Of a stretch of DNA of 53,040 nucleotides, positions 12,001 to 18,000 are shown piece after piece (position 1 is the first letter of the stretch; the number at the start of each line of letters is the position of its first letter). The stretch comes from Candidatus Nanohaloarchaea archaeon (GTDB lineage Archaea > Nanohalarchaeota > Nanosalinia > Nanosalinales > Nanosalinaceae). Made by a program: the position numbers. The stretch spans positions 1-53,040 of the forward strand of contig JBDGSJ010000013.1 in assembly GCA_042217585.1 (NCBI GenBank), given 5' to 3'.

Positions 12001-15000
12001 CCGTTCAAGGAGAAGGACCTCGTGGCCGGAGAAAAACTGATGAGGAAGCTGTGGAACGCCTCGAAGCTGGTCGACCAGCTCTCAGAGGACGTGGAGGAAC
12101 CCGGGGAGCTGGAGGAGATAGACCGGTGGATGCTCGCCGAGGTCGACGACCTGATACAGGAGATGACCGCCGAGATGAAGGATTTCGAGTTCGCCAAGGC
12201 GAGGGACCGGCTGAGAGAGGTCTTCTGGCACACCTTCTGCGACGACTACCTGGAGATCACCAAGCAGAGGCTCGACAGGGAGGACTCGCAGTCCGCGGAG
12301 TACGCGCTCAGGACCGTCCACAGGAAGTTCCTGAAGCTCTGGGCTCCGATCCTGGTCCACATAACCGAGGAGATATGGCACGAGATGTACAGGGACACCA
12401 GCATCCACACCGAGGACTGGCCCGACCCCGAGGGAGTCGACGCGGACCTCGAAGCCGGCGAGAGAGCGATGGAGGTAATCTCCGCGCTCAGGAAGTACAA
12501 GACGGACCGACAGATGGCCCTCAACGAGGAACTCGACCATTTACAGGTCCACGGCGACATCGAGGGATTCGAGGACGCGATCAGCCAGGTCATGCATATC
12601 GACGAACTTGAGGTCCACGAGGGAGAACCCGAGACAGAGAAGAAGGTCGTCGAGATCGAGCTGAACTACGAGAAAGCCGGTCCGGAGTACGGCGACAAGG
12701 TCCCCGAGATCGAGGAGGCGCTGGAGAACAACGAATGGCACATCGACGCGGGACACCTCGAGGCCGCTGACGTCCACCTGGAGCCTGAGATGTTCGAGGT
12801 CCACGAGGAAAGGACCTTCACAGGCGAAGGCGAGATGCTGGAGACCGAGAACGCGATAGTGGTGGTCAGGTGAGGACCGGGTTCTCCATCGGTCCATTCC
12901 CGGACCGCGTCTCCGATGTCCCGGACGAGTTCGACTTCGTGGAGCTCTCGCTGGGAGAACACGAGATCCCGCCCGATGAGATAGACGCGGATGAGTTCCG
13001 GGGAGAGCTGGAAAAGGCGGGAAAGGACCTCGTGGTCCACCTTCCGTTCCGCCAGCCCGCCGCGACCTCGGTCCCGGCCTTCAACGAGGCGGAGCTGGAG
13101 TACATGGAGGAACTGCTCGAGTTCTCCGCCGAGCTAGGCGCAAGTAAAGCGGTCCTACACGGGAACGTCCGTGACGCCGCCTCGGAGGATGAACTGGAAA
13201 AGTTCAGGGAGCAGGTGGACCGGCTCGAGGAGATCAGCGAGGACCACGGGATCGAGATATGCTACGAGAACGTGGGACAGGTGAAGGGCGGGGTCGAACT
13301 CTTCACCCTGGGCGAGATACTTGAGGAGAAGAATGCTTCGATGACCTTCGACGTCGGACACGCCTACATGGAAGTGGGCCAGGACCGGATGGAGGATTTC
13401 CTCGACGAGTACTCGCACCTCGTCTCCCATCTCCACGTCCACGACTGCAGGGACCGGGGTGACTCCCATATCTCGGTGGGCGAGGGAGAGATAGAGTTCG
13501 GACCGGTCGCCGACATGCTTGAAAGCCCATCCATCTGTATCGAGGTCTTCACCGACGACGTGGAGTACGGAGTTGTCTCGCTGAGGAAGTTTCTGGAGAA
13601 ATTCTGACCGCGGGGGCTGGGCTGGAGTTAAAAGAATTCAAGGAGCAGTCCTCTCCATGAGCGACGGAAAACACTCGGAGATGTCCAAGTACCAGCTGAA
13701 GAAGCTTATCAACAGGCTTGAGGACATCCGCGGCCGCAACACGGAACTGGTCTCGCTGTACATACCCGCGGGGTACGACATGTCAAAGATCTCGGACTTT
13801 GTGACCTCGGAGCAGAGCGAGGCGGAGAACATCAAGTCGAAGCACACCCGGAACAACGTTCAGGATGCGCTGTCGAAGATCGGGCGGAAGGTGAAGGAGG
13901 AGCAGGAGACCCCGGAGAACGGTGTGGCGTTCTTCGCGGGAAATGTCAGCGATACAGAGGGCAGGCCGGACATCAAGATATGGGAGGTCGTGCCCCCGGA
14001 GCCGATCGAGTCCCGGCATTACAGGTGCGACAAGGAGTTCGTATTGGAGCCGCTGAAGGAGATGGTCGTGGACGACAGGGTCTACGGCCTGATAACTGCG
14101 GACAAGTCCGAGGCCGCCATCGGCTATCTCCAGGGGTCCAGCGTGAAGACCGTCTACACCATGAGCTCCAACGTCCCCGGGAAGACCAAGGCGGGAGGAC
14201 AGTGCCTGGACCCGGATTCAGTAGTCCAGATGTCTGACGGAGACCTGAAACGAATTGAAGAAGTTCAGGTTGGTGACAGCGTTAAGTCGGCAGATACTGA
14301 CTCCATGGAGCTGAGGGACTCTAAAGTCGTGGACAAATGGAGGGAAGAGAAGACAGTCTATAAGATAGAGACCAAGTTCCCGAGAAAGACCATAATGTGT
14401 TCTGGCGATCACGAAGTGTTCACTTCGACTCTGGAGAAGAAAGCTGCCGAAGACCTGGAGGAAGGGGAAAAACTTCTTTTCCCTGAGAAAATAGATACTG
14501 CCTCCAGAGAAAGAATACTGGATACAGAAAAATACTATAACTCTTTCAAGATATCGGAGAAAGGCAGAGAAAAGCTTAAAGAGGAGAGAAAAGAGCTAGA
14601 ATATTCTCAGAGCCGTCTAGGAGAAGAAGTAGGAGCAAGTCAGACAGCAGTATCTAAAATCGAGCTTGGGGAAAGAGATGTAGGAAGGGAACTTCTGCAG
14701 GATATCTGTGTGGAGCTAGGTATCGATTTCAGAGGTTTCGTACAGGACTACTGCAGAGGTAAGGAGTACAGTCTTCCAAACAATACAGGAAAGGATCTGG
14801 CTGAGATACTGGGATACTTCGCCGGGGACGGCAGCTTCGATTCGGAAAGGCTGAACTTCCATGAACAGGATAGAGAAGTAGCAGAATACTATCAGGAGAA
14901 ACTAGAGGATGTGTTCAAATGTGATACAAAGATCAGGTTCAGAGAGGATAAGAACTACTATCTGCTAAGAGCATTCGGTAAACCACTGGTCAAGTTCATA

Positions 15001-18000
15001 AAAGAGGAGTTCCCGGAGATCAAGAAATCAGGAGATACAAAAATACCTGAAAAAGTACTTGAAGCCGATGATGAGATACTTCACAGATTCATACAGGGAT
15101 TCTACGACGCAGAGGGACACTGCAGTGAAAACAGAGGCAGGATAGGACTATCAGCAAATAACAAAGTCCTGATACACCAACTGCAATCATCGCTACTCAG
15201 AGCTGAAGTGGTAGCATCTTTGACAACCTACGACAACAGAGAAAACCCGCATACCGACAACACAAGATACACTGTGAGCATCTCTGACCAGAAATCGATC
15301 CAAAACTTTGCCGAAAATATCGGATTCTGCAGTGAGAGGAAGACAAGAGAACTTGAAAAAATCTGCCAGCTAGATAAATCCAGGAATAACAACCGTCAGA
15401 TACTGAAAAACGGGGAAGAAGTCAGGGAAGTGCTCCAAAACAACGGTAGGAAATTTAATGACTTCAAAAAATCGAACATGTACTTACAGGGAAAAAGAGA
15501 GATAAGCAAGAAGAAATTCGATGAAAACATAAAGAAAGACACGGAGGGCACTCTAGAGAAAAAACTGGGAGAAATCCACAGCTCCGAGATACTTCCTGCA
15601 AAAATAAAGTCGATCGAAGAAAAGGAAGAACAGGAGGTAATAGATATAAGCGTAGAGGCAGGCAATTTCATAGCGAACAACCTGGTAGTTCACAACTCGG
15701 CCCAGAGGTTCGCACGCCTCAGGAAACAGATGCTGAAGTCCTTCCTGCAGGAGATAGCGGAGAAGGCGAAGAACGCGTTCCTCGACAAGGCCCGGGACGG
15801 GGACCTCCTCGGTATAGTAATCGGTGGACCGGGCTTCGTGAAGGACAAGCTTATCGACGACGACTACCTCCACCAGGAGCTGCAGGACAAGGTCATCACG
15901 TCCAAGTCAATCAGCCAGTCAGGGGAGGCCGGTCTCAGCGAACTGGTCCAGAAAGCGGAGGACGAACTCGAGGACTCACAGGCCGTGATGGAGAAACGGA
16001 TGGTCAACAGGTTCCTGGAGAACCTTAAAGAGGAGAACGGGAAGTCGGAGTACGGACTGGAACCGGTGATGAAGGCGATGAAGATGGGAGCGGTCGACAC
16101 TGTCCTGATATCCGAATCACTGGACATGTTCCAGGCAGAGTACGAATGCCCGAACGGCCACGAGGACGACGTTATCGAGGAGGAGCCCGAGATAGAGGAC
16201 TCGAAGGAATGCCCCGAGTGCAGCGAGGAGATGGACCTGGAAGAGATGAGCGACATAGTCGACGTCCTCGGGGAGAAAGCGGAGGAGATGAGTTCCGACC
16301 TCGAGATAATCTCCACGGACCACGAGGAAGGCCAGAGACTGGAGAACATGGGCGGTATAGCCGCCATACTCCGGTACAGGATACGCTGAACCGGGAAAGC
16401 TTTAACAGATTTCCACCCTCAATCTTCCTCTATGGCGGATGAGGAGAAAGACGTGGTCCACAACGTGGACCTGACGAACGACACCTATACTGTCAAGCAG
16501 AGCCTTGTAAGGAACAAGTACAGCGTATACGGACCTGGCGGTGAACTGGTTCTGAAAGGCAAACAGAAGCTTTTCAAGATGAAGGAGGACTTCTCCCTCT
16601 ACAACTCGGAGGGAGACCCTGTTTTCCGGGTAAAGGCGGATTCGATAATGGACATAGCCGGCGACTACACCCTGACCGATGAGGCGACGGGGGAGCCGAT
16701 AGCGGTCCTGGAGAAGAACTTCACGGTATTCAAGCACAGCTGGAGGATTAAGGACCCTGACTCCCGCGACATGGTGGCGCGGATAGAGAGCAGAAGCACG
16801 ATAATCGACGCTTTGAGGGTTTTCTCCGACCTTGTATCCCTTCTGCCTCACAAGTACAGCATCGAAACTCCGGAGGGAGAGAAGATCGGAGACATCAAGG
16901 GAAGCTTCTCCCTGAGAGACCGGTACGAGGTCCACATAGAGGATTCCCGCGGGATACCGAAGGAGGCGCTGGTGGCTGCGACCCTGACCGTCGATGCGCT
17001 GGAGGGCAACTAACCTGATAAAGGACCGGTTCACAGATGGAAGTATGAGGAGAGAGTTACGTGCGCTGGGACTTCTGACCTCAGTCATTCTGCTGTCTGT
17101 CACGGCATCAGGATACACTGTCCAGGAAACCGGAAACGGCTTCCAGGTGACGGGACTTTCGCTGGATGCTGACACAGGAGTATCGATAGATCTGGAGGAG
17201 ATAGATTCACCGGTCAGGAAACTCGTCATAAACTCGACGCAGGCCATATTCGACGAGAACCTGACCGTTAAGACAAGCGAAGACATTACGGAGAGCGATT
17301 TCCCGGACCTCCCCGCCAGACGCAAGCCCCTCCGGTCTATAAACGTCACCGGCTTTTACGCACAGGTCCAGATCCGGGTCGAGAAGAAGAACTCCAGCTC
17401 CGGCGTGTACGTGAAAAGGTTCTACTGGAGGGAGAAGAACTTTACAGGGAAAAAATACACGGTGAGAAGCTCCACGCCGTTCATACTCGTAGAGACCCGT
17501 CAGAAGTCCTGTAAATCTCCAGCTTACGCACTGACGCCGGATGGACAGACATGCGTGAGGTACCGGAACACCTGCCAGATACCGGAGGGCCATATAGAGT
17601 TGAGAAGCTGTTCCGTACAGGACGAGTGGAACCGGGCGAGCAAGTTCCTCGGGAACTTCTCGAAGAAGATGACCCCGAGGAGGGCAGAGCTTCTGGACCG
17701 GGCCAGGGATGCGTTCAGATCCGGGAACTACACGAAGACGATAGACCTCGTGATGAAGGCCAGGAGAGCCCCACCGTTCTCCATCACCTCTATTTTCGCC
17801 GTCCTGGCCGGTGTTCTCGTACTGGTGCTCGGGACGGGGACCATCTACCTGTGGATGACGAGAGACACCGAACCTGCGACCGGAGAAGCCGCAGAAATCA
17901 CGGAAGAACTGAGGTCCCTCCTGGAGGAGGCCAGCCAGGAAAAAAGGGAGGAGGTAGGCGACGAAGTGAGGGACCTGCGGTCAGCGCTGGAAGAAGGAGA

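What a model noticed while it worked through the whole genome (the two positions that open the first line are those of the whole stretch)
13657..16389. Intein with an XRE-HTH domain splits the GGQ motif of release factor aRF1
The only aRF1 gene (g00207, 910 aa) is interrupted by a 498-residue intein (Cys1 ... His-Asn / Ser+1) inserted exactly between GGQ and SAQRFARLR, inside the universally conserved peptidyl-tRNA hydrolysis motif, and the intein carries an XRE-type HTH domain in front of its two LAGLIDADG repeats. I read this as an undescribed intein allele (aRF1 GGQ site) that makes translation termination of this symbiont depend on protein splicing, so that splicing of a Cys1 intein could gate all protein synthesis; the HTH may let the excised intein act as a DNA-binding regulator. 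New would be an intein insertion point in a translation termination factor, shared by many DPANN lineages.
Evidence so far: Sequence read directly: GKTKAGGQ then CLDPDSVVQM ... FIANNLVVHN then SAQRFARLRKQ; intein = residues 183-680, C5 14203-15696. Pfam rows: eRF1_1 15-137, Intein_splicing 191-680, HTH_3 307-359, LAGLIDADG_3 381-449 and 477-556, eRF1_2 resumes at HMM 41 at residue 680, eRF1_3 777-909. No second eRF1 gene besides pelota g00158. Intein-bearing open frames with 32-78% identity over the whole intein in 9 other of 69 Nanohaloarchaeota genomes, plus one split over two contigs. Protein search with residues 150-720: 109 clusters at E<=1e-20, most of them 800-940 aa with eRF1, intein, HTH_3 and LAGLIDADG Pfam rows; named sources include Nanohaloarchaea, Woesearchaeota, Nanoarchaeota, Aenigmarchaeota; name [...]
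(Added by a program. Inside this text positions count along the whole contig: contig position 1 is position 1 of the stretch shown here. "Call 12" and the like, gene names such as g00115 and contig names such as C1 are that model's own, and its searches are not shown. The text may have been shortened before it was handed on; [...] marks where a part breaks off. The agent that wrote the report below was given it as the finding of a first reader that could run no searches.)

Follow-up and report, generated by a model that had tools for sequence, protein, structure and literature searches.

The report
Mobile intein splitting aRF1 at GGQ
The only release-factor gene of this salt-lake nano-archaeon is interrupted, right after its catalytic GGQ motif, by a self-splicing homing-endonuclease intein that carries extra DNA-binding domains: an ordinary kind of selfish element sitting at an insertion site that the papers searched do not describe.

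Summary
ORF 13657-16389 (+, 910 aa) is aRF1 with a 498-aa in-frame insert (14203-15696) between GGQ and SAQRF.

- **Splicing and endonuclease residues.** All class-1 splicing residues and both LAGLIDADG catalytic acids are present.
- **Fold.** The AlphaFold model (pLDDT 93.8) superposes on the TliVMA, PI-TkoII and PI-PfuI inteins.
- **Foreign composition.** GC3 is 0.49 in the intein against 0.82-0.87 in the exteins.
- **Patchy distribution.** The intein is in 12 of 70 genomes of the phylum and scattered on the extein tree. The nearest aRF1 relatives lack it.
- **Size forms.** HTH-bearing, HTH-less and mini forms (131-184 aa) all sit at the same site.
- **The HTH is not special to aRF1.** HTH_3 modules occur in 7 of 15 other intein-bearing proteins scanned. 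Published structures describe HTH-like accessory domains of intein endonucleases.

I read it as a mobile intein whose HTH helps the endonuclease. Gating of translation and a regulator role are unsupported.

The site is not DPANN-only: Nitrososphaerales-labelled aRF1s carry it too, together with a second intein in the YxCxxxF motif. Ten full-text searches found no paper on either site.

Verdict: new member of a known kind.

The parts
13657..16389 (+). aRF1 precursor gene (910 aa plus stop)
   Evidence: open frame, eRF1_1/2/3 Pfam domains, TIGR03676 at 428 bits
13657..14202 (+). N-extein, residues 1-182, ending in GGQ; contains NIKS and the YRCDKEF motif (site a, empty here)
   Evidence: (model positions 2-174); GC3 0.87
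14203..15696 (+). Intein, 498 aa, from Cys1 to His497-Asn498
   Evidence: GC 0.434 and GC3 0.49
14203..14517 (+). HINT N-terminal half (intein residues 1-105) with block A Cys1 and block B S67-x-x-H70
   Evidence: C1 and H70 invariant in 57 of 57; S67 in 56, T in 1
14557..14751 (+). XRE-type five-helix HTH domain (intein residues 119-183; Pfam HTH_3 at protein residues 307-359)
   Evidence: absent in 7 of the 56 HEN-bearing aligned relatives
14791..15369 (+). LAGLIDADG homing-endonuclease domain (intein residues 197-389); catalytic D209 (14827-14829) and E304 (15112-15114)
   Evidence: I-Tsp061I Z 18.6, I-DmoI Z 17.4; D209 in 56 of 56; E304 as E in 53 and D in 3
15412..15579 (+). Basic four-helix accessory domain (intein residues 404-459, pI 9.8), in the position of the accessory domains of TliVMA and PI-TkoII
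15589..15696 (+). HINT C-terminal part (intein residues 463-498) with block F D481 and block G H497-N498
   Evidence: invariant in 57 of 57
15697..16389 (+). C-extein starting with the nucleophile Ser+1 (SAQRFARLR...): rest of eRF1 domain 2, domain 3, stop codon
   Evidence: (model positions 174-402); GC3 0.82
14173..14202 (+). Left half of the presumed homing site (last 30 nt of the N-extein)
   Evidence: compared with 30 intein-free alleles; the role as cleavage target is inferred
15697..15726 (+). Right half of the presumed homing site (first 30 nt of the C-extein)
   Evidence: inferred

Best explanation
This is a class-1, homing-endonuclease-bearing intein lodged in the single aRF1 gene, between Gln182 of GGQ and the conserved Ser that follows it.

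Inferred mechanism, from established intein chemistry (recalled, not tested here):
1. The 910-aa precursor folds.
2. Cys1 makes the N-S acyl shift at Gln-Cys.
3. The Ser+1 hydroxyl takes over the N-extein.
4. Asn498 cyclises, helped by His497 and Asp481.
5. An O-N shift restores ...GGQ-SAQRF..., giving a 412-aa aRF1 and a free 498-aa intein.

The free intein is a two-motif LAGLIDADG endonuclease. It is flanked by an XRE-type HTH in front and a basic four-helix domain behind. I expect it to cut intein-less aRF1 alleles across the GGQ/SAQRF codons when DNA of related cells meets, so that repair copies the intein in. The two helical domains most likely act as accessory DNA-binding modules of the endonuclease.

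The element persists because only exact deletion is tolerated at this site of an essential single-copy gene. It cycles between gain, loss of the HTH, loss of the endonuclease (mini-inteins) and loss of the whole intein.

Shown here: anatomy, conservation, fold, foreign composition, patchy distribution.
Inferred: splicing, cleavage, the role of the HTH.
For: Anatomy:
- The insert is exact and in frame at aRF1 model position 174.
- All 68 of the 72 clusters that include the N-junction read GGQ|C. The other 4 are N-terminally cut and read HN|S.

Conservation in the 57-row alignment A1:
- C1, H70, D481, H497 and N498 are invariant in 57 of 57 rows.
- Ser+1 is present in 56 of 56 rows.
- The LAGLIDADG acid D209 is present in 56 of 56 rows; E304 is E in 53 and D in 3.

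Fold (model pLDDT 93.8, pTM 0.90):
- TliVMA intein 7qss: Foldseek E 5.5e-25; VIA Z 35.9, 3.3 A over 389 residues.
- PI-TkoII Z 33.8; PI-PfuI Z 27.9.
- Ssp DnaB mini-intein Z 22.8, 1.2 A over 132 residues.

Foreign composition:
- GC3 is 0.49 in the intein against 0.87 and 0.82 in the exteins.
- AAA/AAG codon use is 32/20 in the intein against 6/28 in the exteins.
- Intein GC is below extein GC in 9 of 10 host genomes.

Patchy distribution:
- The intein is in 12 of 70 genomes of the phylum.
- It is polymorphic inside genera g3, g12, g15, g17 and g21.
- On the extein tree, 9 changes are needed for 10 intein rows (shuffled mean 9.0), and at least 5 are forced by starred branches.
- The window's nearest exteins (G052 and G053, 81% identity) are intein-free.
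- There is one starred conflict between the intein and extein trees.

Homing-cycle forms at the same site:
- HTH-bearing inteins of 490-577 aa.
- HTH-less inteins of 409-432 aa.
- Mini-inteins of 131-184 aa.

HTH as an accessory module:
- HTH_3 lies inside 7 of 15 other intein-bearing proteins scanned, either before or after the endonuclease.
- PMC8966425 (passages read) describes diverse accessory domains of intein endonucleases. Those of TliVMA and PI-TkoII are HTH-like and alter DNA cleavage.
Against: - No splicing or cleavage was observed; both rest on sequence and a predicted fold.
- The intein and extein trees of the 10 intein-bearing genomes agree in their main splits. Much of the history may therefore be vertical, and homing may be rare.
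- The HTH sits between HINT-N and the endonuclease. In TliVMA that place holds a linker described as distant from the DNA-binding interface. Its contact with the target is not evident from position alone, and I could not read coordinates from the model.
- The HTH domain is acidic (pI 4.9), although that is usual in salt-in halophiles.
- GC3 of the exteins is above the window's mean (0.70, sd 0.10, over 41 long frames). Part of the contrast could be high-expression codon bias of aRF1 rather than foreign origin.
Confidence: 0.82

Rival explanations
1. Resident, no longer mobile intein. It still splices, but the endonuclease is silent and the element is simply inherited because it cannot be deleted imprecisely from the GGQ loop.
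For: The main splits of the intein and extein trees agree. Across DPANN, intein identity tracks extein identity: about 40% for the intein against 41-51% for the N-extein. No contig joining across 14203-15696 was seen in three samples, but contigs drop rare variants.
Against: Both catalytic acids of the endonuclease are kept in all 56 HEN-bearing relatives aligned. GC3 of 0.49 inside a gene of GC3 0.82-0.87 has not been brought to the host's level. Presence is as scattered on the extein tree as shuffled labels. There is one starred conflict between the trees.
Confidence: 0.1
2. Conditional splicing as a switch on termination. Splicing of the Cys1 intein answers to redox state, salt or temperature, and so sets the supply of active aRF1 and, through it, all translation.
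For: The intein sits in the only aRF1 gene found and in the catalytic loop, so the precursor cannot work (inference). None of the 11 other intein-bearing genomes of the phylum shows a second, intact aRF1. The intein is acidic like halophile proteins (pI 5.2, D+E 20.3%). Salt-inducible halophile inteins exist; I saw only the reference-list entry for Ciragan et al., the rest is recalled. A published in vivo case for RadA exists (PMC11409957, abstract only).
Against: There is no partner cysteine. Positions -3 to -1 are GGQ, +1 is Ser, and no intein column other than Cys1 is conserved as Cys near a junction; C66 is Cys in only 11 of 57 rows. At least 50 genomes of the phylum, including the nearest relatives, carry an uninterrupted aRF1. 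The endonuclease residues are under conservation, and the element's composition is foreign.
Confidence: 0.06
3. Domesticated regulator. After excision the intein uses its XRE HTH to bind specific promoters, in the way WhiA, a LAGLIDADG plus HTH protein, became a transcription factor.
For: HTH_3 scores above the Pfam cut-off. The HTH domain is about as conserved as the other domains (0.55 against 0.52-0.68). WhiA structures appear among the fold matches (3hyi, 8dy9).
Against: The catalytic acids are kept, unlike in WhiA (that contrast is recalled). The HTH is lost in 7 of the 56 aligned relatives while the endonuclease stays. The same kind of module occurs in inteins of many unrelated host proteins. 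Distribution is patchy.
Confidence: 0.04
4. Dead gene or artefact: the insert does not splice, and the frame is a pseudogene or a chimeric assembly.
For: None beyond the lack of any experiment.
Against: The frame is open over 910 aa with every splicing residue in place. The same arrangement is found in 72 clusters at 90% identity and in at least 58 of the 150 best representatives at 50% identity. Contigs of a second sample bridge both junctions. No other aRF1 was found in the genome.
Confidence: 0.02

Closest known systems
TliVMA and PhoVMA inteins (PDB 7qss, 7qst; Beyer et al. 2022, PMC8966425)
   Same: Archaeal class-1 inteins with HINT, a nested two-motif LAGLIDADG endonuclease and a helical accessory domain between the endonuclease and HINT-C. 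Best fold match: Z 35.9, 3.3 A over 389 of 432 residues. They are inserted in a catalytic loop (the P-loop) of an essential protein.
   Different: The host protein is aRF1, not the V-ATPase A subunit. Sequence identity is only 17-20%. The aRF1 intein has an additional XRE-type five-helix HTH where the VMA inteins have a 28-32-residue linker.
PI-TkoII (2cw7) and PI-PfuI (1dq3)
   Same: Multi-domain intein endonucleases with extra DNA-binding domains. Z 33.8 (423 residues aligned) and Z 27.9 (386 residues aligned).
   Different: The host proteins (DNA polymerase, ribonucleotide reductase) and the accessory domains are different. Whether an extra domain of PI-TkoII matches the HTH in position was not resolved here.
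PI-SceI (1vde, 1lws)
   Same: An intein whose additional DNA recognition region extends the endonuclease's target. It is the paradigm for homing of an intein.
   Different: The DNA recognition region is an insertion within the HINT domain, not an XRE HTH. The fold match is weaker: Z about 20-21, rmsd 5-6 A.
Inteins of other translation proteins (aIF2/eIF5B, RtcB, ThrRS) listed in intein surveys (PMC4760082 Table 2; PMC5784728)
   Same: Rare cases of inteins in category J proteins, inserted at conserved motifs.
   Different: None is a release factor. Neither survey's main text contains 'release factor'.
WhiA (3hyi, 8dy9)
   Same: LAGLIDADG fold joined to an HTH domain.
   Different: WhiA is free-standing and works as a transcription factor without nuclease activity (recalled). 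Here the catalytic acids are conserved and the protein is embedded in a HINT domain.

Membership tests
Class-1 intein | Nucleophile (Cys/Ser) as first residue (block A) | tested here: met
   Cys1, invariant in 57 of 57 aligned rows
Class-1 intein | Block B T/S-x-x-H | tested here: met
   S67-G-D-H70; H in 57 of 57 rows; S in 56 and T in 1
Class-1 intein | Blocks F and G: conserved Asp, penultimate His, terminal Asn | tested here: met
   D481, H497 and N498 invariant in 57 of 57 rows
Class-1 intein | Ser/Thr/Cys as first residue of the C-extein | tested here: met
   Ser+1 in 56 of 56 rows. It is the conserved Ser of GGQS, also present in the 30 intein-free alleles fetched.
Class-1 intein | HINT fold | tested here: met
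   Predicted model against Ssp DnaB mini-intein: Z 22.8, 1.2 A over 132 residues; gp41-1: Z 21.4, 1.1 A. This is a prediction, not a solved structure.
Class-1 intein | In-frame insert that interrupts a host protein exactly, with the host sequence continuous without it | tested here: met
   aRF1 model positions 2-174 and 174-402 flank it; intein-free homologues read GGQ|SAQRF.
Class-1 intein | Protein splicing takes place | not testable with these tools
   No experiment or proteome data. Inferred from the residues and from the lack of another aRF1.
LAGLIDADG homing endonuclease (two-motif, monomeric) | Two LAGLIDADG helices, each with a catalytic Asp/Glu | tested here: met
   ILGYFAGDGS (D209) and FIQGFYDAEG (E304). 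Two LAGLIDADG_3 stretches, E 4e-20. D209 in 56 of 56 rows; E or D at 304 in 56 of 56.
LAGLIDADG homing endonuclease (two-motif, monomeric) | Alpha-beta-beta-alpha-beta-beta-alpha fold, twice | tested here: met
   Model residues 196-393 against I-Tsp061I: Z 18.6, 2.2 A over 176 residues; I-DmoI: Z 17.4.
LAGLIDADG homing endonuclease (two-motif, monomeric) | Site-specific cleavage of the intein-less allele | not testable with these tools
   Only indirect signs: patchy distribution, foreign codon usage, conserved catalytic residues.
XRE / HTH_3 domain | Match to the family profile above its cut-off | tested here: met
   PF01381, 35.9 bits against 23, E 7.5e-9, profile positions 1-53 of 55.
XRE / HTH_3 domain | Five-helix bundle | tested here: met
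   Helices 119-131, 136-143, 147-155, 162-172 and 176-183 in the model, pLDDT 86-96. The domain was not folded or fold-searched on its own.
XRE / HTH_3 domain | Binds DNA | not testable with these tools
   Not tested.
aRF1 (TIGR03676) | Equivalog score, three eRF1 domains, and the NIKS, YxCxxxF and GGQ motifs | tested here: met
   428 bits against 234.7; eRF1_1/2/3; ENIKSK, YRCDKEF and AGGQ read. The motif names are recalled.
Redox-switched (disulfide-trapped) conditional inteins | A second cysteine near the splice junction able to pair with Cys1 | tested here: not met
   Positions -3 to -1 are G, G, Q and +1 is S in 56 of 56 rows. Apart from Cys1, no Cys column lies near a junction and none is invariant: C66 is Cys in 11 of 57 rows, and C169 (41 of 57) lies in the HTH.

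The most novel reading that the evidence does not exclude
In many small-genome archaea the whole supply of active release factor passes through one or two protein-splicing steps, at the GGQ site and, in Nitrososphaerales, also at the YxCxxxF site. 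If splicing of these inteins depends on salt, redox state or temperature, it would be a post-translational throttle on translation termination, and the element would have been kept for that reason rather than only as a parasite.
Probability: 0.05. Interest if true: 0.8.

Novelty: new member of a known kind. Interest (0 to 1): 0.4.

Why it matters
- **A new kind of host protein.** Surveys describe inteins as concentrated in replication and repair proteins and rare in the translation core (PMC4760082, passages read). Here a release factor hosts inteins at both of its signature motifs: GGQ (catalysis) and, in other lineages, YxCxxxF (stop-codon reading).
- **An old and diverse allele.** The GGQ-site intein is present in at least 58 clusters at 50% identity, across DPANN groups and Nitrososphaerales.
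- **A marker of gene flow.** It can trace DNA exchange among uncultured nano-archaea.
- **New endonucleases.** It offers natural LAGLIDADG enzymes with modular XRE-type accessory domains, aimed at a target that is nearly universal in archaea and eukaryotes.
- **A test case.** It is a clean system for asking whether an intein in an essential translation factor has any physiological effect.
- **An annotation problem.** Many of these genes are named 'LAGLIDADG family homing endonuclease' or 'helix-turn-helix domain-containing protein' in public records. That hides the organism's only aRF1.

Tried and rejected
- **Literature searches.** Ten full-text searches gave no paper on a natural aRF1/eRF1 intein. 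The terms paired 'intein' with aRF1, aRF-1, eRF1, peptide chain release factor, release factor/DPANN, GGQ motif, nanohaloarchae- and nitrososphaer-. The Bodo saltans virus paper holds both words, but its inteins are in polymerases.
- **Papers read for passages.** The Anaeramoeba paper and the eukaryote survey have no 'release factor' in the main text.
- **Gaps in the literature check.** Of the Novikova et al. supplements, the 2 files held as text gave 0 hits and file 1 could not be searched, so a listing there cannot be excluded.
- **Sequencing runs.** No RNA holder was listed.
- **Laid contigs.** No joint skipping 14203-15696 appeared in three runs. Contigs drop rare variants, so this says nothing about intein-free alleles in the population.
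- **RNA families.** Rfam found nothing at 13000-17200 on either strand.
- **Antisense frames.** Those inside the gene have no support and were not pursued.
- **Neighbouring genes.** They are housekeeping genes: a class I tRNA synthetase, a TIM-barrel protein and a LOR-family protein. No mobile-element genes are present.
- **Not done.** The HTH and the C-terminal helical domain were not folded or fold-searched on their own.

Full report

Yes. The window has one long frame at 13657-16389 (+) of 910 aa.

- eRF1_1 at 15-137.
- Intein_splicing at 191-680.
- HTH_3 at 307-359 (E 7.5e-9, above the cut-off).
- Two LAGLIDADG_3 stretches.
- eRF1_2 resuming at profile position 41 at residue 680.
- eRF1_3 at 777-909.

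NCBIfam's aRF1 equivalog scores 428 bits against a cut-off of 234.7. On the DNA, the aRF1 model covers positions 2-174 at 13687-14205 and positions 174-402 at 15697-16380. The insert is therefore exact: residues 183-680, nt 14203-15696. The junctions read GGQ|CLDPDS and VVHN|SAQRF.

Contigs from a second sample of the same salt-lake study bridge both junctions. The arrangement does not depend on one assembly.

**2. What else is in the genome?**

The assembly has 0.98 Mb in 38 contigs and is 89.68% complete. This is its only Intein_splicing match and its only aRF1.

Two weaker eRF1-like matches exist:
- Pelota on contig C4.
- A 295-aa acVLRF1-like protein on C33. It has a coiled-coil-like N-terminus and reads GGFSQ where aRF1 has GGQ. 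It has no eRF1 domain 1, so it cannot read stop codons; that last step is inference.

The neighbours of the gene are housekeeping genes. Rfam finds nothing on either strand.

**3. Anatomy of the insert**

I aligned the window's intein with 56 aRF1-intein clusters (A1). I picked these from the 71 clusters found, leaving out truncated rows and some near-duplicates.

Conservation in that alignment:
- C1, H70, D481, H497 and N498 are invariant in 57 of 57 rows.
- S67 is S in 56 rows and T in 1.
- Ser+1 and the preceding G, G, Q are present in 56 of 56 rows.
- The two LAGLIDADG acids are kept in all 56 endonuclease-bearing rows: D209 in 56; E304 as E in 53 and D in 3.

The AlphaFold model is confident (pLDDT 93.8, pTM 0.90). 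It shows five parts:

| Part | Intein residues | Note |
|---|---|---|
| HINT-N | 1-105 | |
| HTH bundle | 119-183 | five helices |
| LAGLIDADG domain | 197-389 | |
| Helical domain | 404-459 | four helices, pI 9.8 |
| HINT-C | 463-498 | |

Fold matches:

| Structure | Score |
|---|---|
| TliVMA intein 7qss | Foldseek E 5.5e-25; VIA Z 35.9, 3.3 A over 389 residues |
| PI-TkoII | Z 33.8 |
| PhoVMA | Z 31.1 |
| PI-PfuI | Z 27.9 |
| Mini-inteins (HINT part) | Z about 22 at 1.1-1.6 A |
| I-Tsp061I and I-DmoI (residues 196-393) | Z 17-19 |

This is a standard archaeal endonuclease-bearing intein with one extra domain.

**4. Is it mobile?**

Four lines say it is, or was recently.

(a) Composition.
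- GC falls from 0.57-0.63 in the flanks to 0.38-0.47 inside the intein.
- GC3 is 0.49 in the intein against 0.87 and 0.82 in the exteins. Synonymous choices differ: AAA/AAG 32/20 against 6/28; GAA/GAG 36/29 against 9/45.
- In 10 intein-bearing relatives, intein GC (0.34-0.45) is below extein GC (0.41-0.59) in 9.

(b) Distribution.
- Among 70 genomes of the phylum, 63 show aRF1, 50 of them over the family cut-off in one uninterrupted piece.
- 12 carry the intein: G000, G006, G007, G008, G023, G037, G038, G042, G048 and G067 whole; G054 split on two contigs; G041 cut by a contig end.
- Genera g3, g12, g15, g17 and g21 hold both states.

(c) The extein tree.
- The tree has 40 rows: the 10 whole intein-bearing genes and 30 intein-free ones. 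The locus cap let me fetch only 30 of the 50.
- The intein label needs 9 changes. That is no fewer than shuffled labels (mean 9.0). Starred branches force at least 5.
- The window's nearest exteins (G052 and G053, 81% identity) are intein-free.
- Its nearest intein (G048, 78% identity) sits in another starred extein clade among intein-free genes.

(d) Size forms at the same site.
- HTH-bearing inteins of 490-577 aa.
- HTH-less inteins of 409-432 aa that keep the endonuclease.
- Mini-inteins of 131-184 aa without the endonuclease.

Against a picture of free-wheeling transfer:
- The intein and extein trees of the 10 genomes agree in their main splits. They differ in one starred four-row set.
- Across phyla, intein identity to the window (about 40%) runs parallel to extein identity (41-51%).

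I read this as transfer mostly among close relatives, with frequent loss.

**5. The HTH**

It is a genuine XRE-type domain by profile and by predicted fold. It is about as conserved as the rest of the intein: 0.55 mean column identity against 0.52-0.68.

It is not peculiar to aRF1. I scanned 15 other intein-bearing proteins, 10 from relatives' genomes and 5 from the protein search. Seven have an HTH_3 match inside the intein at E <= 0.001, and 5 of those are above the Pfam cut-off:

| Host protein | Position of HTH_3 |
|---|---|
| HerA (3 proteins) | after the endonuclease |
| Hel308-like helicase (weak match) | after the endonuclease |
| FttA (weak match) | before the endonuclease |
| RNase J | before the endonuclease |
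| DnaB | first intein of the protein; its position relative to that intein's endonuclease was not resolved |

Beyer et al. 2022 (PMC8966425, passages read) describe diverse accessory domains of intein endonucleases. They state that those of TliVMA and PI-TkoII resemble HTH DNA-binding proteins, and they show that swapping them changes cleavage.

The aRF1 intein has such a domain in the canonical place (404-459) and a second one, the XRE HTH, in the place of the N-terminal linker. The simplest reading is a second accessory DNA-binding module.

One caution applies. In TliVMA that linker lies away from the DNA-binding face, and I could not measure the geometry in my model.

**6. The gating and regulator ideas**

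Dependence of aRF1 on splicing follows from the anatomy. It is the normal state of every intein in an active site.

A redox switch has no support. No cysteine lies at -3 to +1, and apart from Cys1 no Cys column lies near a junction or is invariant. Salt dependence is conceivable for an acidic halophile protein, but it would be a generic property.

At least 50 genomes of the phylum live with an uninterrupted gene. A regulator role is not excluded, but nothing requires it.

**7. How wide is it?**

- The intein-only protein search gave 91 hits. P0002-P0072 are aRF1 plus intein. The next best are RadA inteins at E 1e-27 and weaker.
- The exhaustive search of 50%-identity representatives gave 63 proteins at E <= 1e-30. 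Of the 150 best listed, 36 show GGQ|C and 22 more show the HN|S-x-x-R-F/Y junction.
- In species-representative genomes, 23 of the 79 loci returned have GGQ|C in aRF1. Their record titles name Nanoarchaeota, Woesearchaeota, Pacearchaeota, Aenigmatarchaeota, Micrarchaeota (including a complete Fermentimicrarchaeum genome), Forterrea and Iainarchaeum, one 'Methanosarcinales' label, and Nitrososphaerales.
- The site is therefore not confined to DPANN.

**8. A second site**

The Nitrososphaerales locus L088 has another intein in the same gene. It ends ...FLVHN|CDDHFHLDPL.

A search with it found 61 aRF1 clusters carrying this intein, which is about 505 aa long. It lies between ...YLYR and C of the YxCxxxF motif. 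Of the 61, 15 also carry the GGQ-site intein (14 of 523-530 aa, one mini of 165 aa) and 46 have GGQS uninterrupted. In the window this site is empty (HYR-CDKEF).

**9. Novelty**

Ten full-text searches and passages of four intein papers gave no mention of an intein in aRF1 or eRF1.

Limits of that check:
- One supplement file of the main prokaryotic survey could not be searched.
- InBase and subscription journals were out of reach.
- Public records already carry automatic names such as 'eRF1/intein/homing endonuclease'.

In kind the element is fully known. What is new is the host protein, the two insertion sites and the XRE module at the N-terminal linker position. I file it as a new member of a known kind, interest 0.4.

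Noticed in passing
L088:1-1530 (P0092); P0094-P0151, P0169, P0171, P0175: A second, unrelated intein site in aRF1. An intein of about 505 aa (Cys1, Cys+1) lies between R and C of the YxCxxxF stop-codon-recognition motif (...YLYR|C...FLVHN|CDDHFH...). It is found in 61 clusters, with source names Nitrososphaerales. Of these, 15 also carry the GGQ-site intein, giving aRF1 precursors of about 1450 aa with two inteins. Its LAGLIDADG-like motifs are not picked up by Pfam LAGLIDADG_3.
   Followed up: partly
own genome contig C33: L006:985-1872 (+): A 295-aa protein with a charged, coiled-coil-like N-terminus and an acVLRF1 / eRF1-domain-2 match (E 2.4e-14). It reads GGFSQ where aRF1 has GGQ, which fits the GxxQ form of Vms1-type peptidyl-tRNA hydrolases (motif recalled). 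It may be a ribosome-rescue factor in a nano-archaeon.
   Followed up: partly
L018-L034 (relatives' genomes): Relatives in the phylum carry many inteins, up to 9 matches per genome. Host proteins include a Hel308-like helicase, HerA, an XPD-like DEAD_2 helicase, a T2SSE ATPase, SMC and the transcription termination factor FttA. The window's genome has only the aRF1 intein.
   Followed up: partly
G054:C69/C2 and G041:C57 (L014, L146): In two relatives the contig ends inside the aRF1 intein. This could reflect mixed intein-bearing and intein-free alleles, or several similar inteins, breaking the assembly.
   Followed up: no
L071: A record labelled 'uncultured Methanosarcinales archaeon' holds an aRF1 with a 500-aa HTH-bearing GGQ-site intein that is 38% identical to the window's, like those of Woesearchaeota. 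The label may be a binning error, or the intein may reach Euryarchaeota.
   Followed up: no
names: Many intein-bearing aRF1 genes are named 'LAGLIDADG family homing endonuclease' or 'helix-turn-helix domain-containing protein' in public records. Annotation-based surveys would therefore score these genomes as lacking aRF1.
   Followed up: no
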